From NCBI GenBank assembly GCA_000092065.1, contig CP000585.1: 64,000 nucleotides of DNA; one strand, given 5' to 3'. A model generated the notes under the pieces. That model saw nothing but the letters and a program-made list of their open reading frames with translations, was not told the DNA's origin and searched no databases. A program made the translations under genes and the position numbers. Positions 2,684 through 59,391 of the stretch are shown one piece after another (position 1 is the stretch's first letter; the number at the start of each line of letters is the position of its first letter). Source of the stretch: Ostreococcus lucimarinus (taxonomy: Eukaryota).

Positions 2684-4528
2684 ATGGCGACGCGAGGGAT
2701 GGCGGCGGCGTCGACGACGCGGGTCCTACCGGACGGGCGGCGCGCGCGAGGACGCCGGACGAGGCGGCGCGGACGCGCGGCGCGCGCGGCGGCGGAGGTG
2801 GTGGACGTCGACGAGCGAGGCTTGGCGCGGGCGCTGGAGCGACAAGGGCTGCGCTTGGGCGAACGCGTCGATCAGGGGTCGTTTGCGGTGGTTTATAAGG
2901 CGACGAGCGCGGGGATGCGTGGGGGGGATGAGACGTCTTGGCAGGGGGCGGAGGGGACGCTGCACGCGGTGAAGATTTTGAGCGCGACGGCGTCGACGGT
3001 GAGTTCTCGGCGCGATTTTAAGCGAGAGGCGACTCTGCTGACGCGAGTGAATCACCCGGGGATCGTCAAGGTGCAACACTACGACGAGACGCCTCAACCG
3101 TACATGGTGACAGAGTTTTGCACGAGTGGGAATTTGTGGAACGCGCTTCGCGCCGAGGAAATCAAGGCGACGCGGTTCGCCGGCGCGAGCGGTTCGCCGG
3201 CGCCCGTGCCCGAAGAAATGCCTTTGCTCGACTTTCCCACGCTCATGAAAGATGTGGCGGATGCGCTGACGTATTTACACACCGCCGGGTTCGCCCACCG
3301 CGACATCAAGACGGCAAACATTTTGCTCACCTGGTCGTCGGAGCTGAACCGCTTGCAAGCCAAGCTGTGCGATTTCGGGAGCGCGGCGCCCGTGTCTAAA
3401 ATGCCTCGTCGCCCGAAGCGCGGGGCCGTGGAGAAGGCGTTAGGTTTAGGTAAAGGTTGGCAACCGGTCGGTACGATGCTTTGGATGGCGCCCGAGATGC
3501 TTCGGCCTCCCATCGTCGGCGAAGAGTTGGAGGGATTCGGCGGCGACAAATCAGACATCTACGCGCTCGGCGTCGTCTTGTGGGAATGCTTGGAGTGGCG
3601 CGTACCTTGGATGGGCGACGGCACGCCCACGCGCGCGAGAGTTATAGAGGAAGTCGTCGACAACGGTTCGCGACTACGTGCGGGCGATAGGTCGAGCCAG
3701 GCTGTGACGTCTCTTTTGGACGGCATGTTCAAGACGGTGCCCGCGCAGCGACCGTCTGCGTCGCAAGTCTCCAACTCGCTCTCCGCGATACAAAAGCGTT
3801 GGGACGGAGCCGGTATGTTCGACTACGTGAGTCAAATGGCGATCACGCGAGCTACCGAGGTAGCGAGCTTGCTTGAAAGCACGTCGATCGATAAAGACAC
3901 GCAAAGCGTCATTGAAAAGGAAGCGCGCGCCGTCGCTGGTGGCGGGGGTGAAGACGAGGATGCGGTCGAGGAATCCGCGACGGAGTCTGGGCAAACGATC
4001 GAAGCATCAGATTTGTCCGAAGCTGTGCAGTCGTTCAGGCCGACCGCGAGCGCTGAAGAGCGAGGTGAAGACGAACTCGACGGGACGACGGCGAAACAAC
4101 TCACACGCACCGAGGAGACGAGAATTAGACTCACAGACATCGATCCGGAGACGTGGTTAGGCGAGCCGGGCACGCTCGATTCTGACTTACTGTGCGAAAA
4201 TTTGCTCAACATGATTTTCCCGCACATCCTTGACGCACAATTCACTCCTGAAATGGCGGACGAGATGGCGAAGGGAATCGAAGAGTTACAATCGCTCACT
4301 CAAAAATTCAACGAGTTGAAGCGCAGATCACGCACGGATCCTTTCGCCGCGCTAGCCACAGATTCGAAAGGCCGTGAAGTCAAGAGAATGACGAGCAAAA
4401 TAGAAAGAATCGAAGTTGAAGCGCAAGTTGCGGCGTGGGATAAGACGCGCACAGTCTTGCGCGAGCAACAAAAGAGAGCAGACGAAGAGTATAGTTCGTG
4501 GAGGCGGGCGCTTCGCAAACTCGGGTGA
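2684..4528 (+). CDS. Ser/Thr protein kinase, TKL-like (Raf/MAP3K-like catalytic domain) with a long acidic coiled-coil C-terminal region
   Basis: The ATG is at 2684. The kinase domain contains VVYKA (subdomain II), HRDIKTANILL (catalytic loop), DFG, GTMLWMAPE (activation segment/APE) and DIYALGVVLWE. Confidence 0.8.
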   Translation: MATRGMAAASTTRVLPDGRRARGRRTRRRGRAARAAAEVVDVDERGLARALERQGLRLGERVDQGSFAVVYKATSAGMRGGDETSWQGAEGTLHAVKILSATASTVSSRRDFKREATLLTRVNHPGIVKVQHYDETPQPYMVTEFCTSGNLWNALRAEEIKATRFAGASGSPAPVPEEMPLLDFPTLMKDVADALTYLHTAGFAHRDIKTANILLTWSSELNRLQAKLCDFGSAAPVSKMPRRPKRGAVEKALGLGKGWQPVGTMLWMAPEMLRPPIVGEELEGFGGDKSDIYALGVVLWECLEWRVPWMGDGTPTRARVIEEVVDNGSRLRAGDRSSQAVTSLLDGMFKTVPAQRPSASQVSNSLSAIQKRWDGAGMFDYVSQMAITRATEVASLLESTSIDKDTQSVIEKEARAVAGGGGEDEDAVEESATESGQTIEASDLSEAVQSFRPTASAEERGEDELDGTTAKQLTRTEETRIRLTDIDPETWLGEPGTLDSDLLCENLLNMIFPHILDAQFTPEMADEMAKGIEELQSLTQKFNELKRRSRTDPFAALATDSKGREVKRMTSKIERIEVEAQVAAWDKTRTVLREQQKRADEEYSSWRRALRKLG

Positions 4529-4554
4529 GCGACACCGCGGCTTAGTGCACTTTG

Positions 4555-4725
4555 GCTTTGAAGTAGCGACGTGCCGTATTTCCTATTAATAGTAGATGGT
4601 GAATATAGCAGCGCTGGCGCTCGTCTTTTAAATTTTTTTTTATTTCGCCGATGGTGTATAAGGCGACGAGCGCGCGACGCGACGCGCGCGATGGCGACGC
4701 GAGGGTATAAGGCGTCGCTACTTCA
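4555..4725. repeat. Inverted-repeat-flanked mosaic segment: 13-nt perfect inverted repeat arms, an AT-rich core, and two fragments copied from the upstream kinase gene
   Basis: The arms are tgaagtagcgacg (about 4558-4570) and cgtcgctacttca (about 4713-4725). The inner sequence has an exact 39-nt copy of kinase 2662-2700 (gagcgcgcgacgcgacgcgcgcgATGgcgacgcgaggg). Immediately upstream of it is a near-copy of kinase 2890-2913 (ggtgtataaggcgacgagcgcg). tataaggcg occurs twice. Confidence 0.7.
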
Positions 4726-6712
4726 GCGAGGTGTGCCCCAACGTGTGGCAGCTTGTTTTGTTCCCGTCTGTGTCGAAGACTAAGGGTAAATACTCCTCGT
4801 TTTCGCACGGGAATCTACTGTTTTTGAAGTGCTCGACCATCGCGTCTTTCCCCTGCACGCGCGCATACGTGACTTCGCAAACTTTTCGCGAATTGAACTC
4901 CTCCCATTTTTGCTTATGGAATTCCTTGTAAAACGCCGCTGTTTGCTTTGCACACTTGAAGTTGACAAAAGCGTAGCCCAAATTGCACTTGTTCTTGAAG
5001 TCGATTGGAAGGTAAAAGAAGTCATATTGTCCCGCGTACGAGCGATTGAGTAGGTCCAACATCATCGCTTGATTGTACTTGTTAGGGATGTTACGAATCA
5101 TGAGCGTCGTCCGGCCGTGTACCTCGGGATGTTCAGACGTGCCCTCATCGTTCGCTTCTTCCATACTAAAGATGAATTCCTCCGGATTCGATCTCGCCCC
5201 TCCATCTATTGCACTATTACCGCTCGACCTTGATCGAGCCATGCTTTCGCTGGTACGCGGCGAACGCATGTATTCCCCGCTCGTCCGCGGCGAGCGACGA
5301 CTGGCGCCATAGCCCCCGACACCTTGCATCATTGCGTAGCCGTACTGCTGTTGCTCCGTAGGCCACCCTTGGTAGCCAAATCCTTGCATCGCGCCCATCG
5401 GCATCCCCGGTCCCATCGAATTTGCGTACGGCCAGTACATATTCGACATCATTTGTGCGCCCATGTACTGCGAGAGCGTCGGCGGCGACTGCGGGGAGAA
5501 GGACTGCGTCTGCATTTGTTGCGGATGTCCACACTGAAAGTCGACGTGAAGTGGTGCGCCTCGGAAACCGACTCGCTGGAGCTCCATAACCGCTGTCTCG
5601 GCGTGTCGAACGTCGAAATACTCCACAAATCGATGATTCTCATGTCCCTTTGGCACCGTCAACCGCTTCAAGTCGCCAAACGTTTCAAGAGTGCTTCGAA
5701 GCTCGGCTTCGCGCTCAACGTCATCACCCGAACCGACATCGTACGCTAAGAAACGCCCTTGGTTTTCCATGCCCGGGATCCATTCGCACGTCGCCGAGTA
5801 CGCCACCATGTGAAACACGTGCGTGGACATTTGCAACGTACGCTTGGCGCTCTCTGCGCATCGCACGTCGTAATATGCGATAAACACTGCGTTCAACGAG
5901 CGTCGCATCTCGGTCGACAGCGCGCGAATTTCTCCGAACGGCGACAAAATTTGCCACAGCACTTGATCACTCATCGTGGGATCGGCCAACACGAGATAGA
6001 GCGTGCGAGACGGGTCGTCATTCGTCCAGACCGCCGGCATCGTCATCGACGTCTCCCGCTGGATCGGCATCGACGCCGCCGATTGTTGCTGCATGCTCAT
6101 CAAGTATTGTTGTTGTTGCTGTGCCGTTGACTCCATCAAGCTCGTCGGCAACGGTGGTGGCGCCATCATCGGCGGCGGCGGCATCGGAGGCACGGGCGGC
6201 GCACCTCCTCGCCACGCGCCCGCGCGCGCGTCCGCATTCGCCGCTTTCTCGCTCGCATCCGCGACCCTCTGCTTACCGTACGCAACACTTTCACTTTCAC
6301 ATCCATCGTCCCCGACGCTCGACGACGACATCCGTTTCGCCAGCTCTCCCTCCTTCGCCGTCGACGCGTCCGGTCTCGCCTCGCGCGCCTCGCGCGCCCC
6401 TCCCGCGCCGCGCGCCTCGCTCACCGCGTCCAACACCTCCATCGTCGACGTCCCCGACACCCGCACCGCGCGTTCAAGACTTTCCCCGAGTCCATCCATC
6501 CCCTGCGAATCGCTCCCACGCGATCGCATCGCGCCTTCAGCCCCAACATCCGCCGTCGAGCGCCCGTCGGCCCCGCGTCGCGCATCCGCGTCGTCGTCAG
6601 CGATTCCCGCCTTCCCGTCGCGCGCGAACGCACTTTCCCCGCCCGCACCGCGCCGATCGCTCGCACAATATTCATTCTCACCCCCGTTCGCATCTTCGCG
6701 CGTCCGCGGCAT
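4718..6712 (-). CDS. Mei2-like RNA-binding protein (three RRMs including the diagnostic C-terminal Mei2 RRM3)
   Basis: [10 protein letters not shown]...[15 protein letters not shown] (RRM1), [16 protein letters not shown] (RRM2) and [21 protein letters not shown]...[23 protein letters not shown]...[11 protein letters not shown] (RRM3) match the Mei2 family. The N-terminal ~230 aa are low-complexity, so the exact start is uncertain. Confidence 0.8.
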
Positions 6713-17340: not shown

Positions 17341-18972
17341 ATGTGCTCCATTCTGGCCATGTATGACCCGAACGCGGCGATGGAGGACGGACGAGAGGAG
17401 CTGATGCGCGAGCTGAGCGCGCGCATGCGAACGCGAGGGCCGGACGGCTCGGGATATTACGGTTCGAAGCGCTATGGATTGGCGCACGAACGCCTGGCGA
17501 TCATGGACCCCGAGGGAGGCAAACAACCGATCGTGTACGAGGACGCGGCGAAGACGTACGCGGTGTGCGCGAACGGTGAAATTTACAACTTTCGTAAACT
17601 GCAAGCCAAGTACGGGTTGACGGCGGCGAAGACGGGAAGTGATTCGGAGGTTTTGTTGCAGCTCTACAAGCATCTCGGGAACGAGTTCGTGAAAGAGCTG
17701 AACGGAATCTTCGGTTTTGTCGTCGTCGGTGACGACGGTGAGCACATGATCGCCGCTCGCGATCACTGTGGAATCAAACCGCTGTACATCGGGTACGGCA
17801 AGAATGGCGTCATGTGGTTCGCGTCCGAGCTTAAAGCCATCTGCGACCAAGACTGCGAACGCATCGAAGAATTCCCGGCGGGTTATTACTGGACTCCGAA
17901 GGAAGGCTTTGTGAAATGGTACAACCCGACCTGGGACTTTGACGACGCCGTCGGCACGAAAGACACGTCGCACGTTCGCGCGATTCTCGAAGAGGCGATT
18001 CTTGATCAAACCATGGCTGATGTTCCGATCGGGCTTCTTTTATCCGGCGGTCTCGACTCTGCGGTCGTATCTACTGTTTTAAAGCCGTTTCTTGAGGCGA
18101 GTGGGCAAGAGTACCTGTCGTTCACCGTCGGTCAAGAGGGTTCGCCCGACGTCACGGCCGCTCGTATGATGTCCGAGTTCTTGGGCACGAAGCATCACGA
18201 GTACCTTTTCACCTCCGAAGAGGCGTGTGCGAACATCGAAAACGTGATTTACCATCTTGAAACCTACGAGCCGGAGCTCATCAGATCCGCCATTCCGAAC
18301 TACTTCCTGGCTAAGCTCACGTCGCAGCACGTCAAGGTGGTCCTCACGGGCGAAGGCTCCGATGAGCTTTTCGCCGGCTACCTCTACTTCCGCGATGCAC
18401 CGAGCTCCAACCACGTGCACAACGAACTCCGTCGCATCTTTGGTCACCTGCACAACGTGAACTGCCAGCGTGCCGATCGCATGACGATGGCTCACAGCTT
18501 GGAAGCGCGCGTGCCTTTCTTGGATCCGCGCGTCATCGACGCCGTGATGGCGGTTGATCCGAAGTATAAAACAATCGAAGGCGAAGAAAAGCCGGAAAAG
18601 CACGCGTTGCGCGCGTTGTTCGATGGTGAGATTCCTGACCCCGTGCTCTGGCGCACCAAGGCGATGCAGTGCGAAGGCGTCGGCCTGAACTGGGTCGAGG
18701 ACCTCCAAAAGTTCTGCGAAGAACAAATATCCGACGAAGATTTCGCCAAGGCGGAGTCGACGTACCCAATCAACCCTCCGCACAGTAAGGAGGAGATGTA
18801 CTATAGACGCATCTTCGAAAAGCACTACAAGGGGATGGATAAGTTTGTTCACGTGTGGGAGGGTGGATGTCGCGCCGGTGGCGCCGCGTGGGAAAACGAT
18901 CAGTACACGCGCGCCGGCGTGAAGAACGTCAAGCAACTCGCGAAGGGTCTCACCGGCGTTAAAGGCGCGTAA
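17341..18972 (+). CDS. asnB: Asparagine synthetase (glutamine-hydrolysing), AsnB-type
   Basis: It starts MCSILAMY (Cys2 is the glutamine amidotransferase nucleophile). It has the PP-loop LLSGGLDSAVVS and conserved C-terminal synthetase blocks (FLDxxVIDxxM, WRTKAMQ). It looks single-exon. Confidence 0.9.
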   Translation: MCSILAMYDPNAAMEDGREELMRELSARMRTRGPDGSGYYGSKRYGLAHERLAIMDPEGGKQPIVYEDAAKTYAVCANGEIYNFRKLQAKYGLTAAKTGSDSEVLLQLYKHLGNEFVKELNGIFGFVVVGDDGEHMIAARDHCGIKPLYIGYGKNGVMWFASELKAICDQDCERIEEFPAGYYWTPKEGFVKWYNPTWDFDDAVGTKDTSHVRAILEEAILDQTMADVPIGLLLSGGLDSAVVSTVLKPFLEASGQEYLSFTVGQEGSPDVTAARMMSEFLGTKHHEYLFTSEEACANIENVIYHLETYEPELIRSAIPNYFLAKLTSQHVKVVLTGEGSDELFAGYLYFRDAPSSNHVHNELRRIFGHLHNVNCQRADRMTMAHSLEARVPFLDPRVIDAVMAVDPKYKTIEGEEKPEKHALRALFDGEIPDPVLWRTKAMQCEGVGLNWVEDLQKFCEEQISDEDFAKAESTYPINPPHSKEEMYYRRIFEKHYKGMDKFVHVWEGGCRAGGAAWENDQYTRAGVKNVKQLAKGLTGVKGA

Positions 18973-19086: not shown

Positions 19087-20040
19087 CTATTGCGTATTAA
19101 CTCTGCTCACCAACTTGGATTTTTCGGCGAGTGTAATCGACGCGCCATCCTCGGCGTTCGTGAACACAAACGTGCGCGCATCCGTGACGGGAAAACTCTT
19201 CGCGACGAGAGCCTTCATCGGACGGTACCCCGGGTACGACATTCGATCAAAAACAACCGCTCCGGCACAAACAACGCCCGGCGCCGTCGTCGCCGCCGCG
19301 CTCTCGATCCCCCAATCGCACTGCATGCCAACCTTGTGCGTGACGTGAATCTCCCCACCATTCCTCACCACGTACTCGCTCGCCCCAGCGACGAACCGCT
19401 CGACCAACGCCCGATTCGCCTCGAGTTCCTCCGCGCTCCTCGCGTCGAATCCGCCCAACGCCGCCTCTCTCGCCGACCCGTCCGCGTCTCGCGCCACGCA
19501 CGGAAAGTTCCAAATCGCCGCGTCGAACGTCCCCCGCTCCACCGTCTCCGGCAGCGTCTCGCCCAAATTTCCCGCGTCCACGCCGTGAATGACGCGCGCT
19601 CCTAACCTTTCCAACTCTCCCAGCGTCTCCTCCATCGCTCGTTCCCCGTAAATCGCATCCAACGACGCCCTCGTCTCGTGCGACGTCGCCGTCACCCCCG
19701 CGCCGCCCAGCGCGCGCGCCACCGCCCTCGAGAACGTGAAGTCCCCGTCGCCGACCGCCAGCACGCGCGCGCGTCGCGCGTCGTACAGTCCGATCCTTTT
19801 CCTTCGCTCGCCGCCGTCCCGCGCGCGCGCGCACGCCTCCGGCCGCGCGTTCGGCGCGTTCGCGACGCCCGCCGTCGCGAACACCGCGCGTCGACACACC
19901 ACGCACCCCGCGCGCGCGCACGCGAGCTGCGCGCGCGTCATGTGCAGCGCGACCGCGGGCGCGACCGCGTCGCGCGTCGCGGCGACGCGCTTGGCGTCGC
20001 GCGCGTCGTCGTCGTCGGCGTCGCGTCGGCGTCGCGACAT
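19087..20040 (-). CDS. DUF2431 / BMT5-like Rossmann-fold methyltransferase
   Basis: VLAVGDGDFTFSRAVARALG resembles the LLVGEGDFSFS motif of 25S rRNA (uridine-N3)-methyltransferase BMT5-like proteins. The ATG at 20040 was verified. Confidence 0.5.
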   Translation of the reverse strand: MSRRRRDADDDDARDAKRVAATRDAVAPAVALHMTRAQLACARAGCVVCRRAVFATAGVANAPNARPEACARARDGGERRKRIGLYDARRARVLAVGDGDFTFSRAVARALGGAGVTATSHETRASLDAIYGERAMEETLGELERLGARVIHGVDAGNLGETLPETVERGTFDAAIWNFPCVARDADGSAREAALGGFDARSAEELEANRALVERFVAGASEYVVRNGGEIHVTHKVGMQCDWGIESAAATTAPGVVCAGAVVFDRMSYPGYRPMKALVAKSFPVTDARTFVFTNAEDGASITLAEKSKLVSRVNTQ

Positions 20041-33202: not shown

Positions 33203-36200
33203 CTAAACCTCGTGCGAGTCTTGTGGAGGCCGCGGCGCGAACGGAGGAGGCGGGCCTCGGCTTCCTGGCGGCGGGCCTCGGCCTGGTGGTCCTCGGCCTC
33301 TTCCTCGGCCGGGCGGCGGTCCTCGACCTGGATATCCTCTACCAGGCGGAGGGCCTCGTCCGCGTCCACCGCTCATGTTCGGCGCGAGTGCATTTGACAT
33401 CGGTGGTGCGCTTGGTGGCGCCGAAAGTTGAGGCGGCGCGGCTGCCGGAGGCGCCCGTTGCCATTGCGGAACGATGGGCTTGTTCGTCGCTGGATTTCCC
33501 ATCATGACGAACGGTGCATTTGTCGCGGCAGCTTCACTATCAGGAGTATCATTCGCCATCTCTTCCATGGACTGGCCGCCATGATCCGTCAAACTCATCG
33601 ATCGCGGAATACCATTCGTCACGCCAGACTGGTGCGTTCCAAACGGTTCACCCGCGTGCGGCACTTGCGTAGGGAGGTCAGCCATGTGCGGCGGCGGATT
33701 ACTCATCGAAGCGTATGGATTACCGAAGGTAGGCGCGTACTGTGACACACCGTTAGCTCGGGGCGACTCGACCGGGGAGGGGATCCCGGTCGGCCCCGCG
33801 CCCATCGGCGGCGCCATCATGACTGGCGGCGCCAACGCGTTGCCCGTGTTGTAATGCGTCGCGGCATCCGCGTGCTGCAACGGTGGGACATCTCGGCGTC
33901 GCGGCGAGTCGGGTTGGTTTGGGTGTGACAAAGGAGCCGCAGAGCGCGGTGGTGGACCCTTCCATTTGCCTTGTGTTCCCGAATTCTTTGCGCCGCCACC
34001 CAGAAGTACGCTCACGACGCGCATCAAAATAAGCGTCAACACGATGGGCGGCCCGAAAATCGTTGCGTTGACGCCGAAAGTGATCAAATCTTTGTTGGAA
34101 GCGAGAGCGGTACCCATGATGGAGTCTACCTTCACTGCAACCGACGTGAACGTCTCGTCACACAGCTCCATGAACGAAAGCAACTTGTTTCCGTGCTTGG
34201 TTTTCCACGCTTGATGAAGAATGCCTTCCATGACACGAGTCACGAAATTGATGATGAACATGACAAAGGGAGAGACAAACGTCCAAGCTCGACCAAAGCT
34301 CGATCTTATCATGTCGAATCCAGACGGATTACCCCGTGTATCGTAAAACTGAGACGACTTAGACTCTTGCTCGTGTGTAATTTTCGCGTCTTCCTCATTC
34401 CAGTCCAAATCCTGTATCAATCCTGTATCAATCATTTGCTCATCGATGGACGAGTCCGTGGCGGCGGTTTCGTCCATAGAACCTTCGGGAACTGATATTT
34501 CGTCATCCGCGACTTCTTTCGTTTCTTCGACGGTCACTGGCTCTTCGATTTGTGGCTGTTCGCCCAGCTCCTCAGTGACTTGTTCTTCGTCATTTGATGT
34601 ATCGAAGACGCTCTCGTCTGTTGTCGTGTCCATGACGGGCGTATCATCGACCTTTGTATCGACTTCTACTTCGTCCGTGGTAGGATCTTCGACAACTGCT
34701 GTTGACTCGGCGTCTGACGACGTCTGTTCGGTCGACTCGACGTTCATAGCCTTCTCGTGTTGAAGCGAATCTTCTTCACTCGGTGCGGCGGTGCTCGCGC
34801 TTTCTTCACACTTTGGACACGTCTCCGGTTCAGGGCACTCTATAGGTTTCGGACATTTCTTTTCTCGGAGCTGGCGTTCCTCGTCCAACGTCTCTTTGGT
34901 TGCTTCGGTCAACTCTGTCTGCTCACGTAAAAGTCTCTTGGTCTCGCCGTGCTGTCGATCGATTTCGTCGCATCGATCTTTTTGCTCGTCGAGCTTGACT
35001 TCAGCGTCGAACGTGCGTTGACGAAGAGCATCGGCTTGTTTTTGCAGATTACTGCGAAGCTTTGCGCTCTGCGCCAAGCACGTATCCGTGCAATCACATT
35101 CGTTTTCAGTCGAAGCTTCTGTCGCCGCGAGTGCAAGTACTTTCTCGTTGTACTGAGTGAGCAAAGCGTCCAAATCAGCTTGCACTTTCTCATGTTGCTC
35201 CTTCATGGTGCGCAGTTTTGACTGACACTTGCCCAACTCATCGACAGCCTCTTTGCTCGATTCAACCTTCCCTTGAAGAGATTCTACCTGCTTCGTCGCC
35301 GCCGCGAGTTCCTCCGACAACTTCTCGATTTCTTCCTGCGCCAAGAGCAATTCTTCGCTCTGTTTGTCGTAGGCCTCCTTTGTCGTAACGGATCGAACTA
35401 ATTTGTCGTACTCGTCTCGTAAAAGGTCGTAATCTTCGCGCAGAGAGCTCTTGGTCTTTTCGGCTTCCGCGAGACTACGCGACATGTCAGCGGCAGACGC
35501 TACACCTGGAGGACACGCACTCGTATCGCGCAACGACTCGAGCTCTGCCGTGAGCTCATCGATGCGCGCCTGTGCGCTCATGTGCTCTTCCGAAACACCG
35601 CGAGCATCTCCAAGTTCACCCTCGAGCTCGGCCAACCTCGAAACAAGCGCTTGCTCGTCTTCGCCTCTTCGCGAAAAATCCTCTTCGAGCGCGTTAATCT
35701 TCTGTTTGAGTTCTTCGTTCTCGCTGATGATTTGCGCATTACTCGCGATTTGTTTTTCAAGATCGACCATAACGCGCCGATCATCAATCTCCGCCTCGTC
35801 GTGTGCGACCTTGCGTGCCATGAACTCTTCCAACTCGCGCTTCAAATCGTCACCATTTTTTTTCATCGCGCGCATCGCTTTGCTTGTCTTCAACAGCGTC
35901 GCTGAAACAGCCTCAACCGTCTCTCCCGCGGATGCGTCCACACTCACCGGAATCTTGTTCGCGGCCATCCACTCCCGAAGCGCGTGAAGCGACTCGTCCG
36001 CACTCAGTCCGACGGGCACATCAATCTTCTGCGCGGCTTTTTGCTTCGCACGCGGCGGTTCCGACATCACCGGCTCTGGCTCCATCACCGGCTCTGGCTC
36101 CATCACCGGCTCTGGCTCCATCTCTGGTTCGTCCTCAACCGCGGGCTCACGTTCCGGCTCCACATCCTCCAATTCAACCGCACGCTCCATCGCGTGCCCT

Positions 36201-52058: not shown

Positions 52059-55046
52059 ATGGCGCGACGACGCGAGCGCACGCGTCGACGCGCGCGCTCG
52101 CGCGCGCGATGGACGCTCGGCGTCGTCGGAAGCGCGGTCTGCGCCTGCGCGACCGCGATCCGAGGCGCGCGCGCGGGCAACGCCATCGGCGCGGCGCTGC
52201 GCGCGACGGGAGGCGCGACGCGCGATGGGCGCGATGGTGGACGGGAAAACGATGGCGCGCGCGGGACGACGCGAGCGAGCGCGAGGGCGAGCGATGGGGC
52301 GAACGCGGTGGGCGTGGAGGAGCTGGACGAGAACGCGCGCGAGAGCGAAACCGCGGCGGCGATTCGTTCGGGCGCGCGGGTTCGATTGACGGACGCGCGA
52401 GCGCGAGAGATGCTGAGTGGGACGATGATGGCGATGTACGGTGGCTTAGGGGAGACCGGGGAGACGACGAATTCGATGGACGTGCTCGTCGGGAGCGGGA
52501 GCGGGGATTATCTGGCGTGGTGTCGACGCGGCGAGCGCGCGAGCGCGGCGCCGGCGGTGGCGAGTGTGGGCGCGGCGGTGCACGCGGACGCGAACAAAGT
52601 CATGTTTCACGGCGGGTACAAGGTTTGGGACGCTGGCAGCGAGTTTGAGGACTTTGCCTCGACGCGCGCGTTTGATATGAAGACGGGTGAGTTTGAATGC
52701 CTCACCGCCGGAACCGCCGAAAACGAAAAGGCTGCGCTGGGCCAGACCCACGGCGCGTGCCCGAAACTCCACGGCGCGCACACTGGTAAGCGCGACGAAG
52801 AAGTGGCCGTCATTACCACTAAGCCGATTCGTTTGCCGAAAGCAGTGGCGAAGAAAGAGACGGCTCACGTCGAGGCCGCGCTCGGTAAACACTTGACTCG
52901 CCCAGAGCTTCCCGCGATCGACGTCGAAGACGAGGAAGACGACGCGACAACGAGCTCTGTTGAAGAAACTACCGATGGCGAAGGTGCGTCTGAGCTGGGC
53001 AGTGAGTCCAAGCAGCACGCCATGATCATCTTTGGTGGTCGCGACGAGAACGACCAACGCTTGGACACCGTCTACGCGCTCGGTCTCGAAGACAAGAAAT
53101 GGCGGAAGATTGAGTACGAACTTCCAGACGAGCGAGACGACATGGTGCCCCAAGGACCGTTTGAAATGCCACTCATCGTGAAGAACGAGCATAAAAACGG
53201 GAAACCGTTTCCGCTTGGGCGTTCGGGCGCCACCGCGGTGGTGACCAAGGACAATAAGATGATTATTTACGGCGGCTTTGTCGTCGAGGGCCGCCTCGGT
53301 TTCAACGTCGGTGAAACGCTCGTGCTTGATTTAGATAAGATGAAGTTCAGCTACCCGATGACGAGTGGCTCTATTCCAGTTCGTCGTAACAAACACTCTG
53401 CAGTTCTTGACAACGAGAATCGCATGTGGATGTGGGGCGGTTCGGTTTGGGATCACACCGGAGGTAGCTCGACGTATGCGTCCACGGCGACGTACTACGC
53501 CGACGTGAGCAACCCCAAGTCCATCGTATGGCATCGTGTGGAAACGAAAGGCAAACCGCCGAGTCAGCGTCGATTCCATTCAGCCATCATCGTGGACGGC
53601 GGCATGTACATCATCGGCGGTGAAGACTATCGCACTCGGACGTACCTGAACGACGTCCACAGGCTCGACTTGAAGACGTTCACTTGGACGCAGCCCGCTG
53701 TTCTAGGTGGTCTCGAAGGTGGTCGAATCCGTTCGAGCATGTTCCCGTGGGTAACGGATGCGTTCAAGAAGCTGGCGCATCCTGAGGCGAGTTTAGGCAA
53801 GTCTCACCACGAGCACACGCACGACGACAAACACGAAGAAGATTTGAAGCGGAAGGTCTCGATCAAGGACGCGGATGAGGAAAAGCCAAAGGATGAAAAA
53901 AAGGACGAAACTAATGCTTTTTCGATCGACATTTCTACGTGCGGCAAAGGTGAACAGGCGCGCGTGCGCACCGGCGAGAACCAGCCTGAAATTGAGAACT
54001 TGATCTCGGTGCTCGTCGATGGTTCAACTTTGGCTTCCAAAAACGGAGCTCTCGGCGCGGAAGACCCGACCGACGCCGCATCGTTGGCAGCTAGTCTCGC
54101 TAGCAATGGCTGGCTTGCAAACACTGCTCGTGGAGCCTCGATTATGTCTGAATCCAGCATGGTGTGGCGCAAGGCGCCGAGTGTCGGCGAAAGCGAAGGC
54201 GTCCCGGGTTGGATCACTGATGCCGGCGGGCGCGATAGTTCGATCTTGACTGAAACTCTCGACGCAGATCCGGATGCGGCGAGCATCGAGGAGCGATTAC
54301 TCGCCGCCGTCAAGGCAGTGTCTAGTGACACAAAACTTAAGTCGAGCGGCGGTAGCGCGCACGCGGTGAAGAAATCTGAAACCAAGGAACACGAGAAAGC
54401 ATCGCCGAAGAAGCGCGTCGACTCAGAAGATGAAGATGACGAAAAGAAGACAAAGAAGAGTTCGCATCACGAGTCTTCGCCTCATCACAAATCATCGCGC
54501 GACCACGACGACGAGGACGAAGATGCCGAGGAGCCTAAATCCTTGAAATCGTCGCATCATAAGTCGTCCAAAGAGGCCAACCACGAGGATGACGACGAGG
54601 AATCGGAACACAAGACACATCACGGTTCTCGCCACAAAGACGAAGACGAAGACGAAGACGAAGACGAATCACGACACTCGTCTCACTCTCACTCGGCGTC
54701 TCACAAGAAGGAAAAGGTTCACCTCTCTGGTGCGGCCAAGATGCTTCAGATGATTCAATCCCAAGGTGCCGATGAGGCGAGGCTGGGTCGGGTCGCGAAC
54801 ATTCGCGCCGGCGACTCGGCACGTCACTTTTACTTGTGGAGCGGCGTCGCTCTGGTGGCGATCGCTGCGGCGATTCTTATCAACCAAAAGAAGACCGAGA
54901 AGAAGCAAGAGAGTGACGTCGAGCGAATTCCCTTAGTTTTGAGTAGCTCGTCGATCTCTGACTCGCCAAACAAGAGCGCCACGTGGCAGCAAGAAGCGTT
55001 AGCTCGCAGAGGGGTCAGGTATGGCGACGATTTTGACGAGCCATAG
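52059..55046 (+). CDS. Kelch-repeat (galactose-oxidase-like beta-propeller) protein with an N-terminal signal-like segment, an acidic His-rich tail and a C-terminal TM anchor
   Basis: Kelch-like blades include KVMFHGGYKVWD..., HAMIIFGGRDENDQRLDTVYALGLEDKKWRKI, KMIIYGGFVVEG..., RMWMWGGSVWDH... and GMYIIGGEDYRTRTYLNDVHRLDLKTFTWT. The tail is HHKSSKEANHEDDDEESEHKTHHGSRHKDEDEDEDEDESRHSSHSHSASHKK. The TM is YLWSGVALVAIAAAILI. The ATG at 52059 was verified. Confidence 0.65.
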   Translation: MARRRERTRRRARSRARWTLGVVGSAVCACATAIRGARAGNAIGAALRATGGATRDGRDGGRENDGARGTTRASARASDGANAVGVEELDENARESETAAAIRSGARVRLTDARAREMLSGTMMAMYGGLGETGETTNSMDVLVGSGSGDYLAWCRRGERASAAPAVASVGAAVHADANKVMFHGGYKVWDAGSEFEDFASTRAFDMKTGEFECLTAGTAENEKAALGQTHGACPKLHGAHTGKRDEEVAVITTKPIRLPKAVAKKETAHVEAALGKHLTRPELPAIDVEDEEDDATTSSVEETTDGEGASELGSESKQHAMIIFGGRDENDQRLDTVYALGLEDKKWRKIEYELPDERDDMVPQGPFEMPLIVKNEHKNGKPFPLGRSGATAVVTKDNKMIIYGGFVVEGRLGFNVGETLVLDLDKMKFSYPMTSGSIPVRRNKHSAVLDNENRMWMWGGSVWDHTGGSSTYASTATYYADVSNPKSIVWHRVETKGKPPSQRRFHSAIIVDGGMYIIGGEDYRTRTYLNDVHRLDLKTFTWTQPAVLGGLEGGRIRSSMFPWVTDAFKKLAHPEASLGKSHHEHTHDDKHEEDLKRKVSIKDADEEKPKDEKKDETNAFSIDISTCGKGEQARVRTGENQPEIENLISVLVDGSTLASKNGALGAEDPTDAASLAASLASNGWLANTARGASIMSESSMVWRKAPSVGESEGVPGWITDAGGRDSSILTETLDADPDAASIEERLLAAVKAVSSDTKLKSSGGSAHAVKKSETKEHEKASPKKRVDSEDEDDEKKTKKSSHHESSPHHKSSRDHDDEDEDAEEPKSLKSSHHKSSKEANHEDDDEESEHKTHHGSRHKDEDEDEDEDESRHSSHSHSASHKKEKVHLSGAAKMLQMIQSQGADEARLGRVANIRAGDSARHFYLWSGVALVAIAAAILINQKKTEKKQESDVERIPLVLSSSSISDSPNKSATWQQEALARRGVRYGDDFDEP

Positions 55047-55081
55047 ACAGTTTGTGTAGTTCTAAGATAATCAAGTACAAA

Positions 55082-57583
55082 TCAAACGCTTTCGTCGTAT
55101 TTTGCGACTGTGGGCCCCCCGCTTACTAATGGTTCGCTATCTTCGTCGTTGCTCGTGAATTTCCCTTTCGCGATGGCGACCAAAACTACGCCGAAGGCGA
55201 TCGCAGTGGCGCCAAAGACAGCGTTGAACGCGACATACTTTCCCTCGTCAACCGCGATCAGTTGAACCTCCTCCACGCGACGACCAGGGATCTGGAGCCG
55301 CACGTACGACAAATCCTCACCGAGATCACCGTCGGAGTCATCACCGGTTTGTTCACTTTGCAAAATCCACCCCTCCGTCGGCATCTCCACGAGCACCTCG
55401 TTTTCGCCTTGTGCGATCGAGACGTTCGTCAGCGGCACTTGAGGATTGAACGCACACTCAGCATCGGGAGTGAATGTACACACCGAAAACCCAGTTGGCG
55501 CGCATCGAAGCGCGTAGACACCATCTCCGTGCTTTCCTTCCTTGTGATTCCAGAAATGACCGGGAGCGTCTTCACCGCATCCTTGCGTTACGCTACACGT
55601 GAAAACGCTGTTTTCGACGTCGTGAGCCGATTGACTAGCCGGATTGAGTTGCTTATTGGTCAGAGTCAATCCACCATGATCGTCAGCAATCATGTCAGAG
55701 ACGTTTTGCGACGAATATTTGTCTGAAGTCCCGTACTGAGCTGCAGTGACGGTGTTTGCGTCGCCACACGAGTTAACGATGCCGAGCTCTGGACAGAACT
55801 GTGTACCGTGCGATCGCAAGTTGAGATCATCGCAGTTTCGCGAGCGAGAGTTTCGCACATTGAAACATTGCCCGATTTCGAGGTTCGGCGCGCAAGAACA
55901 AGAGCATGTGCCACTGAAACGTTCCGGGTCATCCTCGGTCCAAGTCGCATCGTGCGTGATGGAGGCTGTTTGTACTTTTGACGCGGCGACTTGATCGTCG
56001 GGAACAGAATTCACGAGTGTTTCCATTTGGTCGTTGTACGCATTTTGATCGGAATCCCCGAGACGCGGTAAGACGACTTTTCTCTCTTTAAGCGGCTCAT
56101 TTTTGTGGTGCAAGCTCGCCCACACATTTTCGTAACTCGTGCCCGATCTAGAGAGCTTCGGGTAAGTCAATCGGTGATTTTGATCGCTCGATGGCTTCGG
56201 ATCGATGGCGTGCGCGATGATCTGCCAGGCGCGTTGTACGACAAACATATCATTACGTGGAAGAACTGTGCGTTCAGATTCTGCAAGATCTGCTTGTTGA
56301 ATAGCTGCACTGACGGCCGGACAAGTCGGCGACGAGCCCCACGTTGTACCGAGGCTGACGACGACTGTTCGCTGTTCCGGAACAGTGATCATCATCGAAC
56401 CCATCTCACCGGCGTTAAACAAGACATCGTAGCTCGGCTCGGCTCCCGGAAGCACCGGACCGTCGTGTACCGGGCAATCAGCGCCCAAACCGCTGACGGA
56501 ATTCGTCGGCGCCGACTCATTGCCAGCTTGCGCTTGTTCTTGATCGTTCATCTTTGATGCGGCGTGCACGTTGTACGTCCATCCCGCGAGACCAAAGTAC
56601 CTTGACGCGTCAGGATAGGACGGTCGCATCATCGCACGAAGAAATTTTTTGTCGACGAGTTGTCTGGAGCCGCCGTCTGGCATTTTCCATCTCCCTTCGT
56701 TGACGATGAGTTGTCCGAAGCGAGCCATATCGCGGCAGCTCGCGAGCTGTCCGCCGACGAATGACATCTCACCTTTCGAGCTACCCGTACCTTGCTCGAA
56801 GAAATCGCCCAGTCCAAGGGGATCAGCGATGCGCTTCTTCGCGAACGCCGTCGGGCGCTGTCCCGTGGCGCCTCTAAGGACGCCGTTCAAATATTTCAAA
56901 GGCGACTTTTGGACGTCGTTATACGCCGCGTCGTTACGGAACTCCTCTCCTGGTACGTGGCTTCCATCCGAGCTCACCTGCGCGAGCAACTCGCGCACCG
57001 TAAGCGACGCCCAGTACTCACTATTCCACTCCGGCGGCGTATCACCTCCGAATTGTTGCGCGCGGTCCAGCAACTCCTTCACCTTGTCGTCCAGCGTCAG
57101 GTCCTGTCTCAGAATCGCCGCGCCGATCGCGAGTGCCGTCGCCACTTTCCCGACGTATCCCACGTTGAACACGCTGTTCAGCGTCGCGCCGTTGTAATAC
57201 TCTTCGTGCACCACGACGCCGTCCTTCACCACCACCACGCAGTCGCGCGCCGGCAAGTCAAGCTTCAACTGCGTCGACCCCTCGATCAGCGCGTGACCGC
57301 GCAGACCGTGATCTTCGGGAAAGCTAGAGTACCACGACCCATTCGCCGGTCCGAGGACGTCGCGCGAGCCGAGCGCGAGGAGCTCGTCGCTGTTTTCGTA
57401 CGCGTACCACGCGCCGAGCGCCAACACCACGGCGATCGCGACGGCGACGACGCGGTGGCCGTGCGCGGACCAGAACGAGCGCCGACCGTGCGTGGCCCAC
57501 GCTCGAGTGTCTTCGTTCATCGCGAGCGTTCGCTCGCGCGACGGCGCGCGCGCGCGCGAGGATGTGTAGAGCTGATTCATCAT
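55082..57583 (-). CDS. Beta-lactamase/transpeptidase-fold (class C / LACTB-like) membrane protein with a Cys-rich C-terminal domain; the catalytic Ser is apparently substituted by Tyr
   Basis: The N-terminal anchor is VVAVAIAVVLALGAWYAY. SVFNVGYVGKVATALAIGAAILRQDLTLDDKV aligns to the class C motif FELGSVSKTFTGVLGG (as recalled) with Y in place of the SxxK serine. Downstream are ADPLGLGDFF, GGQLASCRDMARFGQLIVNEGRW, a Cys-rich module and a second TM (AIAFGVVLVAIA). Confidence 0.6.
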   Translation of the reverse strand: MMNQLYTSSRARAPSRERTLAMNEDTRAWATHGRRSFWSAHGHRVVAVAIAVVLALGAWYAYENSDELLALGSRDVLGPANGSWYSSFPEDHGLRGHALIEGSTQLKLDLPARDCVVVVKDGVVVHEEYYNGATLNSVFNVGYVGKVATALAIGAAILRQDLTLDDKVKELLDRAQQFGGDTPPEWNSEYWASLTVRELLAQVSSDGSHVPGEEFRNDAAYNDVQKSPLKYLNGVLRGATGQRPTAFAKKRIADPLGLGDFFEQGTGSSKGEMSFVGGQLASCRDMARFGQLIVNEGRWKMPDGGSRQLVDKKFLRAMMRPSYPDASRYFGLAGWTYNVHAASKMNDQEQAQAGNESAPTNSVSGLGADCPVHDGPVLPGAEPSYDVLFNAGEMGSMMITVPEQRTVVVSLGTTWGSSPTCPAVSAAIQQADLAESERTVLPRNDMFVVQRAWQIIAHAIDPKPSSDQNHRLTYPKLSRSGTSYENVWASLHHKNEPLKERKVVLPRLGDSDQNAYNDQMETLVNSVPDDQVAASKVQTASITHDATWTEDDPERFSGTCSCSCAPNLEIGQCFNVRNSRSRNCDDLNLRSHGTQFCPELGIVNSCGDANTVTAAQYGTSDKYSSQNVSDMIADDHGGLTLTNKQLNPASQSAHDVENSVFTCSVTQGCGEDAPGHFWNHKEGKHGDGVYALRCAPTGFSVCTFTPDAECAFNPQVPLTNVSIAQGENEVLVEMPTEGWILQSEQTGDDSDGDLGEDLSYVRLQIPGRRVEEVQLIAVDEGKYVAFNAVFGATAIAFGVVLVAIAKGKFTSNDEDSEPLVSGGPTVAKYDESV

Positions 57584-57651
57584 AGGGTGTTGGCCCGCGC
57601 GCGGTGCGGCGGTGGTCGAAATACGCTGAATTACAACAAGAAAGCTATTAG

Positions 57652-59187
57652 TTAAAGCCAGGGGGTGCTGGATAAGTCGCCCGTCGCCGAACGATCGTCG
57701 AGAGGGTCGACCGAGCTCGTTCCCGCGACTTCCTTACCAGACTTGGCGCTCGAGGCTTCCCAACCGCCGAGCGGCTTGGACGTGTCGAGGAGCTCGGATA
57801 ACGACTCGCCGCTCGGGATGGAGCCGGCGATGGCGAATTTCACGCCGGTTTTGTCGAATATTCGCGATAAACCCAGAAAAATGTGGTGACGAAGGCGCAT
57901 TGTGGTAAACCCAGCCGCGCGGAAGACGCCGTAATCGTTATAACAGACGATTTCCAACACCGCGCCTCCCGCGAAAGAGTTCATGCCGGTGAGCGTGCAA
58001 CGCGGGGCCAAGCTCACGCCACGAACGACGTCCGCGCCCACGGTTGACCGGAGAAAGCTCTCCACTTGCGTTTGTAAGTGCGGGACTTTGGGCAAGTCGT
58101 CGAAAGAAATCGCAAACTGCTCTCGGAACTCGCGATACGGCGCTCGCGAGAGGTTCTCCACCTTGTACGCCACCATGGCGCTGTTCGGGATGTACGCCAC
58201 CTTGCCGGCGCGGTTGATTAACTTCGTGTACAAATAACCGATGCTTTCGACGCGACCGGAAATTTCGCGACGTCCTCCGATCAGGACTCGAATAACTTCT
58301 TTGGGAACGAACCATCCCGCCGCGATGACGATGAGGCCGCCGAAGTAGTTCGCAATCGTATCCCGCAAGACGACGGAGGCGAAAATTGCGAGCACGACCC
58401 CGGATGCGCCGAGCACTTGAAGCACCGCTCGCAACGGTAACCCTAACGAATCAAGCGCGGCCAGGCCCGTGATCCCCCAAATCAGCGCCGCACTCTCTCT
58501 GTCGTACACGTGCGCCGGTATTAAATCAGTCGGTTCCCTCGAACCGTACATTTTGCGCCGCAAGTCTCCCGCCGCTTTCGCGAGAAACTTTTTCCGAAAG
58601 CTCGTCACCACGCTTCCGTAATATACAATCTTCAGCATTCGCACCACGCGTTCGGGCGGTAACAGCGCGTGCGCGTCCGGGCTCGCGATCGGCACGATCA
58701 CCGCGTACACGAACGCCAACCCGACGTTGAACAGCGCGCCTCGCGCCAGCAGATAGACGAAGCCAAAAACACTCTCCGCGAACTCCTCGTCCTCGTCTCG
58801 CCGTCGCGCTCGCATCCACGCGTTGTGCACCACCACCAGCGCCGGCCGCAGCGCTCCGACGGCGAGCATGAGAGAGAAGGAGAAAATCGTCGCGTACGCC
58901 AGCACCTCCGCCACGTTGAGCCTCGCCGCGCTCTGCAGCACCTGCGGCAGGTACGTCGCCGACTGTCGCGCGACTTCGTCCGAGATCGTGCTCGCCGTCG
59001 CTCGCGCGCGCGTCGAGCGTCTCGCGTCGCCGCGCGCCGTCGCCGTCGCCGTCGCCGTCGCGTCGCGCGCCGCGCGTCGCGTCGACGCGTCGGCGCGGTG
59101 GTTGGCGTTCGCGCGCGTCGATTCGCGTCGCGCGGACGCGACGCGCGGCGCGAGCGACGCGCGGGGGGCGGGCGCGACGGCGCGCAT
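57652..59187 (-). CDS. MscS-family mechanosensitive ion channel (MSL-like) with an Arg/Ala/Thr-rich presequence containing an (Ala-Thr)4 repeat
   Basis: VLAIFASVVLRDTIANYFGGLIVIAAGWFVPKEVIRVLIGGRREISGRVESIGYLYTKLINRAGKVAYIPNSAMVAYKVENLSR matches the MscS pore helix plus beta-domain signature. The start is taken at M33 of the ORF (about 59187); M1 at 59283 is possible. Confidence 0.8.
   Translation of the reverse strand: MRAVAPAPRASLAPRVASARRESTRANANHRADASTRRAARDATATATATARGDARRSTRARATASTISDEVARQSATYLPQVLQSAARLNVAEVLAYATIFSFSLMLAVGALRPALVVVHNAWMRARRRDEDEEFAESVFGFVYLLARGALFNVGLAFVYAVIVPIASPDAHALLPPERVVRMLKIVYYGSVVTSFRKKFLAKAAGDLRRKMYGSREPTDLIPAHVYDRESAALIWGITGLAALDSLGLPLRAVLQVLGASGVVLAIFASVVLRDTIANYFGGLIVIAAGWFVPKEVIRVLIGGRREISGRVESIGYLYTKLINRAGKVAYIPNSAMVAYKVENLSRAPYREFREQFAISFDDLPKVPHLQTQVESFLRSTVGADVVRGVSLAPRCTLTGMNSFAGGAVLEIVCYNDYGVFRAAGFTTMRLRHHIFLGLSRIFDKTGVKFAIAGSIPSGESLSELLDTSKPLGGWEASSAKSGKEVAGTSSVDPLDDRSATGDLSSTPWL
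59035..59062. repeat. (GCCGTC)4-5 hexanucleotide repeat inside the MscS-like presequence coding region
   Basis: cgccgtcgccgtcgccgtcgccgtcgcg on the plus strand encodes [10 protein letters not shown] on the minus strand. It is the same hexamer family as 24100-24136 in citrate synthase and (GACGGC)5 at 20238-20268. Confidence 0.8.
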
Positions 59188-59391
59188 CGATCCGGACGCG
59201 CGCGCGACGCCGCGAGCGGGACGCGCGCGATTCGGCGCGGCGGTGAGTGCGGTGGGAACGCAAACATCTCGCAAACATCTCAAACGCGAGCCTCGCGAGA
59301 CGATAGGGGGTCGTTACAGCGACTAATGCGGTCGGCGTGATGGTCGAAAAGCGCGCGCGCGAGCGTTGGGTGAGATGAGAGGGTCGAAGAA

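What the first reader, a model, noticed from the sequence alone, without database searches (positions are those of the whole stretch)
55082..57583. Beta-lactamase-fold membrane protein with the SxxK nucleophile replaced by Tyr, plus a Cys-rich extracellular-type module
Alignment to the class C / LACTB motif FELGSVSKTF gives FNVGYVGKVA: the lysine is conserved but the serine is replaced by tyrosine. This suggests a pseudo-enzyme or a ligand-binding (PBP-like sensor) role. It is combined with an N-terminal signal anchor, a C-terminal Cys-rich module (about 18 Cys in 150 aa) and a second TM. This architecture is not one I recognise from characterised proteins.
Basis: inference. Interest (0 to 1): 0.5.

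Follow-up and report, generated by a model that had tools for sequence, protein, structure and literature searches.

The report
Catalytically dead beta-lactamase-fold membrane protein
This Ostreococcus lucimarinus gene encodes a membrane-anchored protein built on a serine-hydrolase (beta-lactamase) fold that has lost its two key catalytic residues, fused to a previously undescribed cysteine-rich domain, so it most likely binds something rather than cutting it.

Summary
ORF 55082-57583 (-) encodes an 833-aa protein; the annotated form starts at Met22 (812 aa) and is XP_001417985.1 of Ostreococcus lucimarinus CCE9901, a 'predicted protein'. It matches Pfam PF00144 (E=7e-14). Tyr143 sits on the SxxK serine and Lys146 is kept.

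Two corrections. The Cys-rich module has 12 Cys, not about 18. The Tyr is not conserved: orthologues carry G, K, R or E there.

The second catalytic residue, the YxN tyrosine, is also lost (Asn217; N/D in orthologues). Of the 17 columns most conserved in 81 intact relatives, only these two are radically changed.

The protein belongs to an unnamed family of secreted or membrane-anchored hydrolase-like proteins in marine protists, including a dinoflagellate and a diplonemid. These combine a NylB/Lsa45/PIB-1-type domain with a 12-Cys module. The module has no Pfam match, no PDB sequence match and no structural match. Most members keep Ser-Lys-Tyr. The lineages that could be assigned to Mamiellales do not.

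Best reading: a conserved pseudoenzyme with its ectodomain in the lumen or outside the cell, acting by binding. The ligand is unknown. Bacterial MipB is a precedent. It is a new variant of a known kind, of moderate interest.

The parts
55082..57520 (-). Coding sequence from Met22 to the stop (812 aa). Identical to XP_001417985.1 / UniRef A4RXE4 of Ostreococcus lucimarinus CCE9901. The longer ORF back to 57583 adds 21 residues that are not conserved.
57455..57520 (-). Short basic N-terminal head (residues 22-43, MNEDTRAWATHGRRSFWSAHGH). M22, N23, W29, A30 and T31 are invariant in orthologues. Inferred to be cytosolic.
   Evidence: topology is inference (positive-inside rule)
57395..57454 (-). 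First hydrophobic segment (residues 44-63). Probably an uncleaved signal anchor.
   Evidence: (helix 42-63); the anchor-versus-cleaved-signal call is inference from the 23-residue n-region and the ~18-residue h-region
56309..57355 (-). Beta-lactamase / serine-hydrolase-fold domain (residues 77-425; Pfam PF00144 covers 116-417). It belongs to the NylB / Lsa45 / PIB-1 branch. It has four invariant Cys: C115, C283, C370 and C421.
57146..57157 (-). Degenerate SxxK motif: Y143-V-G-K146. The nucleophile Ser is replaced by Tyr (G/K/R/E in orthologues). The Lys is invariant.
56927..56935 (-). Degenerate second catalytic motif: N217-D-A occupies the place of the family's Y-D-S (= YxN of class C enzymes). 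The catalytic Tyr is replaced by Asn (N/D in orthologues).
55919..56308 (-). Clade-specific linker (residues 426-555). Moderately conserved, predicted to be partly helical, with no family match.
55436..55918 (-). Cys-rich module (residues 556-716). It has 12 Cys, all invariant in orthologues. Signature: G-[ST]-C-x-C-x-C-[PA]-P...G-x-C...C...C-P-x-x-G-[VI]...C, followed by five more Cys. A lineage-specific, low-confidence insert lies at about residues 608-657. No Pfam, PDB-sequence or structural match.
55238..55435 (-). Juxtamembrane segment (residues 717-782) with an invariant N-V-S sequon (720-722) and the conserved stretch EMPTEGW. Predicted to form beta-strands. Specific to this clade.
55166..55237 (-). 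Second transmembrane segment (residues 783-806).
55085..55165 (-). Short acidic C-terminal tail (residues 807-833). It contains an E-P-L-V motif (E817 and L819 invariant) and a conserved C-terminal Y-x-x-x-V. Inferred to be cytosolic and possibly a sorting signal.
   Evidence: function is inference

Best explanation
The gene encodes a conserved pseudoenzyme. It is a glycoprotein of the secretory pathway anchored by two membrane spans, with both ends in the cytosol. The loop between the spans faces the lumen or the cell exterior and carries two parts: a NylB/Lsa45-type serine-hydrolase (beta-lactamase) fold that has lost its nucleophile Ser and its general-base Tyr, and a six-disulfide-type Cys-rich module.

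Because the acylation machinery is gone while the scaffold is kept, the protein most likely works by binding rather than hydrolysing. The partner could be a ligand or another protein, with the old substrate cleft or the Cys module as the binding surface. The short conserved cytosolic head and tail would provide sorting or coupling.

Shown: fold membership, loss of Ser and Tyr, retention of the scaffold, conservation and synteny across species, and the wider family. Inferred: topology, disulfides, glycosylation, and the binding or receptor role. The ligand is unknown.
For: - Fold: PF00144 at E=7e-14. The family profile matches Lsa45 8dc1 (4e-46), 4gb7 (4e-41) and PIB-1 8rlj (7e-40), with the profile's 'ySvtK' on the template SxxK and 'feYdss' on the template Y-S-N.
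- Catalytic loss: Ser column = Y/G/K/R/E and Tyr column = N/D in eight species-level lineages. Ser, Lys and Tyr occur together in 81 of 109 relatives.
- Scaffold kept: of the 17 columns that are at least 90% conserved in intact members, 12 are kept and 3 changed conservatively. The only radical changes are the catalytic Ser and Tyr.
- Not a pseudogene: full-length orthologues at 48-60% identity, with conserved neighbours (MscS-like channel and Kelch protein). In the clade, 28% of domain positions, 52% of the first Cys-module core and all 16 Cys are invariant.
- Stable within species: Tyr is fixed in 11 of 11 population variants.
- Extracytoplasmic ectodomain: most relatives have a signal peptide directly before the domain; invariant Cys and a conserved NVS sequon; basic residues flank the cytosolic side of both spans.
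- Precedent: P. aeruginosa MipB has a beta-lactamase fold without SXXK, degenerate YXN and KTG motifs and extra C-terminal domains, is envelope-anchored, and partners the polymyxin sensor MipA (PMC10936184).
Against: - No ligand, partner or localisation is known. No tool here could test binding.
- Lys146 and several cleft-lining glycines are still invariant, so a residual or different chemistry cannot be excluded.
- The full-length structure model was poor (pLDDT 40), so the geometry of the cleft was not examined.
- The topology was not checked with a dedicated predictor.
- The third active-site box is not diagnostic in this branch, because the solved active relatives also lack K/H there.
Confidence: 0.7

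Rival explanations
1. It is still an enzyme. Tyr143 (or another residue) would take over as nucleophile, giving a hydrolase or transferase with altered chemistry.
For: Lys146 is invariant and much of the cleft scaffold is conserved. Tyr is fixed within O. lucimarinus-type populations.
Against: - Orthologues with the same architecture and synteny carry Gly, Lys, Arg or Glu at this position, so no common nucleophile exists.
- The general-base Tyr is also lost.
- The position is among the more variable 16% of domain columns.
- No clade-specific invariant Ser, Cys or His replaces it. The invariant residues are shared with active relatives.
Confidence: 0.07
2. It is a cycling sorting or cargo receptor of the endomembrane system. 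It would resemble plant vacuolar sorting receptors in layout: a lumenal binding domain, a Cys-rich module, a membrane span and a short tail with a sorting motif. This is a more specific version of the binding hypothesis.
For: - The short acidic tails carry a conserved E-x-L-[VLI] motif in the query clade and also in distant type I members: Sulcionema (EEELV) and Biecheleria (QEPLI).
- A conserved C-terminal valine and a conserved cytosolic N-terminal head are present.
Against: - The motifs are short and only loosely match the canonical [DE]xxxL[LI].
- Only 6 of 18 tails matched a strict pattern.
- The tail is the least conserved region (4% invariant).
- There are no localisation data.
Confidence: 0.15
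3. It is a decaying gene or an annotation or sequencing artefact.
For: Loss of catalytic residues is what a decaying enzyme gene would show first.
Against: - The ORF is intact over 812-833 aa in every lineage, with conserved synteny, all 16 Cys invariant and conserved sequence blocks.
- The same motif appears in 11 independent genomic and metagenomic variants.
- Orthologues of O. mediterraneus are held as UniRef entries of the A0A7S series. To my knowledge these derive from transcriptomes; I did not verify this.
Confidence: 0.03

Closest known systems
NylB / Lsa45 / PIB-1 branch of the serine beta-lactamase-like (PF00144, MEROPS S12-type) superfamily. Members include 6-aminohexanoate-dimer hydrolase, Leptospira Lsa45 (a PBP-like esterase) and P. 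aeruginosa PIB-1.
   Same: Same fold and the closest sequence relatives among solved structures. The same third box without Lys or His. The SxxK-helix lysine is retained.
   Different: The nucleophile Ser and catalytic Tyr are missing. The protein is eukaryotic and anchored by two membrane spans. It carries a 130-aa linker and a 12-Cys module that the bacterial enzymes lack.
Unnamed protist family: signal peptide, then 'LGPGxGxW' beta-lactamase domain, then CxCxC Cys module, with or without a membrane anchor. Examples are P0094 from Sulcionema specki and P0103 from Biecheleria cincta. Databases label them only 'CubicO group peptidase' or 'Beta-lactamase-related domain-containing protein'.
   Same: Same two-domain architecture, the same conserved Cys pair in the hydrolase domain, the same Cys-module signature, and often a C-terminal membrane anchor.
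   Different: Most members keep Ser-Lys-Tyr and look like active secreted hydrolases. The window protein and the other degenerate lineages, those assignable to Mamiellales among them, have lost these residues. The window clade also has an N-terminal signal anchor with a conserved cytosolic head in place of a signal peptide.
MipB of Pseudomonas aeruginosa (a beta-lactamase-fold pseudoenzyme).
   Same: Beta-lactamase fold lacking SXXK, with degenerate second and third motifs. Extra C-terminal domains. Membrane or envelope anchored. It acts with a partner in sensing, not in catalysis (PMC10936184).
   Different: MipB is a bacterial lipoprotein whose C-terminal domains are beta-barrels, not a Cys-rich module. 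No sequence relationship beyond the superfamily was tested.
Pab87 / CubicO peptidases (source of the automatic annotation 'CubicO group peptidase').
   Same: Same superfamily. The family profile matches 2qmi at 3e-20.
   Different: Pab87 is an active, self-compartmentalising archaeal protease with a lipocalin-like C-terminal domain. None of this is seen here, so the database label is only a COG-level name.

Membership tests
Serine beta-lactamase-like superfamily (Pfam PF00144) | Significant sequence match to the family profile across the domain | tested here: met
   E=7.3e-14 and 52.1 bits against a cut-off of 27, covering residues 116-417 of the protein and positions 19-313 of the 329-position profile. 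Supported by PDB hits.
Serine beta-lactamase-like superfamily (as an active enzyme) | Nucleophilic Ser of the SxxK motif | tested here: not met
   Tyr143 lies in the Ser column (Ser in 86 of 109 relatives). Orthologues have G, K, R or E.
Serine beta-lactamase-like superfamily (as an active enzyme) | Lys of the SxxK motif | tested here: met
   Lys146 is invariant in the clade and is Lys in 91 of 109 relatives.
Serine beta-lactamase-like superfamily (as an active enzyme) | Tyr of the second motif (YxN; Y-D-S in this branch) | tested here: not met
   The column is 100% Tyr in intact relatives and aligns with the template Y-S-N. The query has Asn217 and orthologues have N or D.
Serine beta-lactamase-like superfamily (as an active enzyme) | Third box (KTG / HxG / WxG) on the beta-3 strand | tested here: inconclusive
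   The query has F-N-A-G. The closest active templates also lack K/H there (ANG, VLG, AQG), so the box is not diagnostic in this branch. The Gly is invariant.
Protist beta-lactamase + CxCxC-module family (unnamed) | Lead-in motif LGPGxGxW and the conserved Cys pair in the hydrolase domain | tested here: met
   The query has L77-G-P-A-N-G-S-W84. C115 and C283 lie in columns that are 86-89% Cys in the family.
Protist beta-lactamase + CxCxC-module family (unnamed) | C-terminal Cys module with the signature GSCxCxC[PA]P...GxC...C...CPxxG...C plus distal Cys | tested here: met
   The module was found in 38 of the 48 family members long enough to hold it. In alignment A2, eight Cys are invariant and three more nearly so, and the query has all of them.
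CubicO (Pab87-type) peptidases | Active SxxK/YxN site plus a lipocalin-like C-terminal domain that drives an octameric cage | tested here: not met
   The catalytic residues are absent. The C-terminal region has no Pfam, PDB-sequence or structural match. Oligomerisation cannot be tested here.
Known Cys-rich extracellular modules (any described domain family or solved fold) | Profile or structural match to a described Cys-rich domain | tested here: not met

The most novel reading that the evidence does not exclude
The 12-Cys module is a new extracellular domain fold that defines an unrecognised, protist-wide family of surface or secreted hydrolases. Prasinophyte picoalgae would then have converted this family, more than once, into non-catalytic surface receptors. 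For example, these could detect the bacterial or algal ester- or amide-linked molecules that the active relatives degrade.
Probability: 0.2. Interest if true: 0.6.

Novelty: new variant of a known kind. Interest (0 to 1): 0.38.

Why it matters
Ostreococcus is a minimal, ecologically important marine picoalga, and few of its surface or endomembrane proteins have a known function. This gene marks a whole unstudied family in marine protists. Its active members are candidate secreted esterases or amidases that could matter for interactions between algae and bacteria or for turnover of organic matter. Its dead members are candidates for receptors or adhesins. The family also offers a clean natural example of selective loss of catalytic residues with the scaffold retained, and a Cys-rich domain with no described relative.

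Tried and rejected
- Full-length AlphaFold2 with the 10-sequence orthologue alignment gave mean pLDDT 40. I did not use it for fold search or for active-site geometry.
- The homologue search with the Cys-module profile returned only two short fragments, because the word index limited the candidates. So I could not learn whether the module occurs alone or in other architectures.
- The afdb50 fold library was unavailable.
- My first guess was that Y231-L-N233 is the YxN motif, and one pairwise alignment to Lsa45 supported it. I dropped this after the 109-sequence alignment and the profile-to-PDB alignment placed the family Tyr at Asn217. Under either alignment the Tyr is not conserved in orthologues.
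- I rejected a Tyr nucleophile because orthologues have G, K, R or E.
- I rejected a pseudogene or artefact on conservation, synteny and population variants.
- I did not attempt dN/dS. The available orthologues are either nearly identical or too diverged (58% identity or less) for synonymous sites to be informative.
- Literature searches for the family in Ostreococcus or in eukaryotes found nothing relevant.
- The Lsa45 paper itself (PMC9836055) is not held. Its esterase activity is known to me only from its title as cited in other papers.

Full report
**1. What is there.** The window comes from Ostreococcus lucimarinus CCE9901. The asparagine synthase ORF at 17341-18969 is identical to XP_001417722.1. 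The target protein read from Met22 (window 55085-57520, minus strand, 812 aa) is identical to XP_001417985.1 / ABO96278.1 / UniRef A4RXE4, annotated only as 'predicted protein / Beta-lactamase-related domain-containing protein'. The mechanical ORF runs from 57583 to 55082 (833 aa). Orthologues start at the position of Met22, and the 21 residues upstream are not conserved.

**2. Checking the observation.**
- Pfam PF00144 matches residues 116-417 at E=7.3e-14.
- Three pairwise alignments to solved structures (4gb7, Lsa45 8dc1, 5tgf) each put Tyr143 of FNVGYVGK on the template's SxxK serine and Lys146 on its lysine.
- In a MAFFT alignment of 109 domains from an exhaustive search, the Tyr143 column is Ser in 86 sequences and the Lys146 column is Lys in 91.
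- Hydropathy gives two membrane-span candidates, residues 44-63 and 783-806.
- The Cys count was overstated. There are 16 Cys in the protein and 12 of them lie in residues 560-710. All 16 are invariant in orthologues.

**3. Orthologues and the fate of the catalytic residues.** Ten full-length orthologue clusters (48-60% identity) were found. One contains an O. mediterraneus sequence. The neighbours are conserved: an MscS-like channel gene upstream and a Kelch-repeat gene tail-to-tail downstream. These are therefore true orthologues.
- The nucleophile position reads Y, G, K, R or E in different lineages, while Lys146 is invariant.
- Within each species-level cluster the residue is fixed: Tyr in 11 of 11 O. 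lucimarinus-type variants, Gly or Glu in others.
- The family's second catalytic residue is 100% Tyr in intact relatives (motif F-T-Y-D-S). A profile-to-structure alignment puts it on the Y-S-N tyrosine of Lsa45. The query has Asn217 there and orthologues have N or D.
- The third box is not informative, because the nearest active solved relatives also lack Lys or His there.
- The most telling number comes from the 17 columns that are at least 90% conserved in 81 intact relatives. The query clade keeps 12 of them and changes 3 conservatively (T to S, Y to F, W to F/Y). It changes radically only the catalytic Ser and Tyr.

**4. The wider family.**
- The exhaustive search gave 833 hits at E <= 1e-3 and 30 at E <= 1e-30.
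- Many of the top hits are long proteins with the same layout: a signal peptide, the motif LGPGxGxW, the hydrolase domain, a variable linker and a Cys-rich module. Some also have a C-terminal membrane span with a short tail.
- The Cys module starts with G-S-C-x-C-x-C-P-P. It is present in 38 of the 48 proteins long enough to hold it.
- Named members include a diplonemid (Sulcionema specki) and a dinoflagellate (Biecheleria cincta). The Biecheleria protein also carries an N-terminal PHB-depolymerase-type esterase domain.
- Short relatives of about 390 aa are bacterial serine hydrolases.
- Ser, Lys and Tyr occur together in 81 of 109 members.
- The degenerate members fall into three groups: the query clade; an Ala-rich group of about 1030 aa from an unidentified source; and a group that includes a second paralogue from O. 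mediterraneus (about 1020 aa) and one from Bathycoccus prasinos (1423 aa).
- A neighbour-joining tree without support values places an intact sequence (P0092) beside the Ala-rich group and sets the second-paralogue group apart. This suggests more than one loss.

**5. The Cys-rich module.**
- An alignment of 24 modules has eight invariant and three nearly invariant Cys, plus conserved Gly and Pro.
- No module matches any Pfam family, and the profile has no credible PDB sequence match.
- An AlphaFold2 model from this alignment has mean pLDDT 64. The conserved core is fairly confident (residues 1-52 at 75-92; 132-158 at about 63-88). The lineage-specific insert is unstructured.
- With the caveat of moderate model quality, this is an undescribed domain.
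- Within the Ostreococcus clade its first half is the most conserved part of the protein, with 52% invariant positions against 28% in the hydrolase core.

**6. How it most likely works.**
- Shown: the protein keeps a hydrolase scaffold under long-term constraint but lacks the residues needed for acylation and deacylation.
- Inferred topology: a basic conserved head (MN..T..WAT...RR) in the cytosol, a signal anchor, a large lumenal or extracellular loop, a second span, and an acidic tail with a conserved E-P-L-V and a C-terminal Y-x-x-x-V in the cytosol. The loop carries the invariant Cys and an invariant N-V-S sequon.
- Inferred function: the protein acts by binding. I favour a receptor, adhesin or scaffold role for the ectodomain. 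A sorting-receptor version is possible because of the tail motifs, which recur in distant type I members (EEELV, QEPLI), but the motifs are short and the evidence is weak.
- Precedent: P. aeruginosa MipB has the beta-lactamase fold without SXXK, degenerate YXN and KTG, and added C-terminal domains. It is envelope-anchored and works with the polymyxin sensor MipA (PMC10936184).

**7. Comparison and novelty.**
- The closest solved relatives are Lsa45, the Bacillus anthracis 4gb7 protein, PIB-1 and NylB. Lsa45 is a Leptospira PBP-like protein; its esterase activity I know only from the paper's title as cited.
- The protein is a member of the PF00144 superfamily by fold, but it fails the tests for an active member.
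- The automatic label 'CubicO group peptidase' is a COG-level name and does not describe it.
- Pseudoenzymes of this fold are known, so the kind is not new.
- What is new: the eukaryotic two-span architecture, the undescribed Cys module, and the finding that the gene belongs to a widespread unstudied protist family in which the lineages assignable to Mamiellales have lost catalysis.

**8. Verdict.** The pseudoenzyme interpretation is supported and strengthened. The function beyond 'non-catalytic binder' remains inference. Interest is moderate.

Noticed in passing
window 52059-55046 (+): Kelch-repeat beta-propeller protein (PF24681, E=7e-41). It has a long His/Asp/Glu/Lys-rich low-complexity C-terminal half and a hydrophobic segment near its end. 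It lies tail-to-tail with the target, with only 35 bp between the two stop codons. The pairing is conserved in other Ostreococcus-type contigs (L001, L002).
   Followed up: partly
window 57652-59283 (-): MscS-like mechanosensitive channel (PF00924, E=8e-9) with an Arg/Ala-rich N-terminal extension of about 110 aa that looks like an organelle-targeting peptide. It lies directly upstream of the target, about 130 bp from Met22, and is syntenic in orthologous loci.
   Followed up: partly
proteins P0093/P0096 (the P0093 cluster includes an O. mediterraneus sequence, UniRef A0A7S0PPF2) and P0146 (Bathycoccus prasinos CAL6347245.1): A second, longer Mamiellales paralogue family (1020-1420 aa). It has the same hydrolase domain and Cys module, a long charged linker and a long cytosolic tail. 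It is also catalytically degenerate, with the Lys and Tyr lost. Whether O. lucimarinus has this paralogue was not checked.
   Followed up: partly
protein P0103 (Biecheleria cincta), residues ~65-109 for the Pfam hit: An intact family member from a dinoflagellate carries an N-terminal PHB-depolymerase-type esterase domain (PF10503, E=7e-6). P0109 has an N-terminal extension of similar length, about 400 aa, with no Pfam match; its relation to the P0103 domain was not tested. The P0103 fusion hints that active members degrade extracellular ester-linked substrates.
   Followed up: no
window 19087-20040 (-): BMT5-like 25S rRNA (uridine-N3) methyltransferase. The ORF in the window is 317 aa, whereas the NCBI model XP_001417973.1 in the same 90% cluster is 284 aa. 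The start site or gene model may differ.
   Followed up: no
window 4001-6000, 34001-36000 and 54001-56000: Local dips in G+C (0.52-0.54 against about 0.62-0.67 elsewhere). The third dip covers the low-complexity tail of the Kelch gene and the Cys-module half of the target gene.
   Followed up: no
window 55262-55726, 56105-56557, 56649-57197 and 56792-57655 (+): Long antisense ORFs (150-287 aa) overlap the target gene. They are expected by chance in DNA with about 60% G+C and have no support as genes.
   Followed up: no
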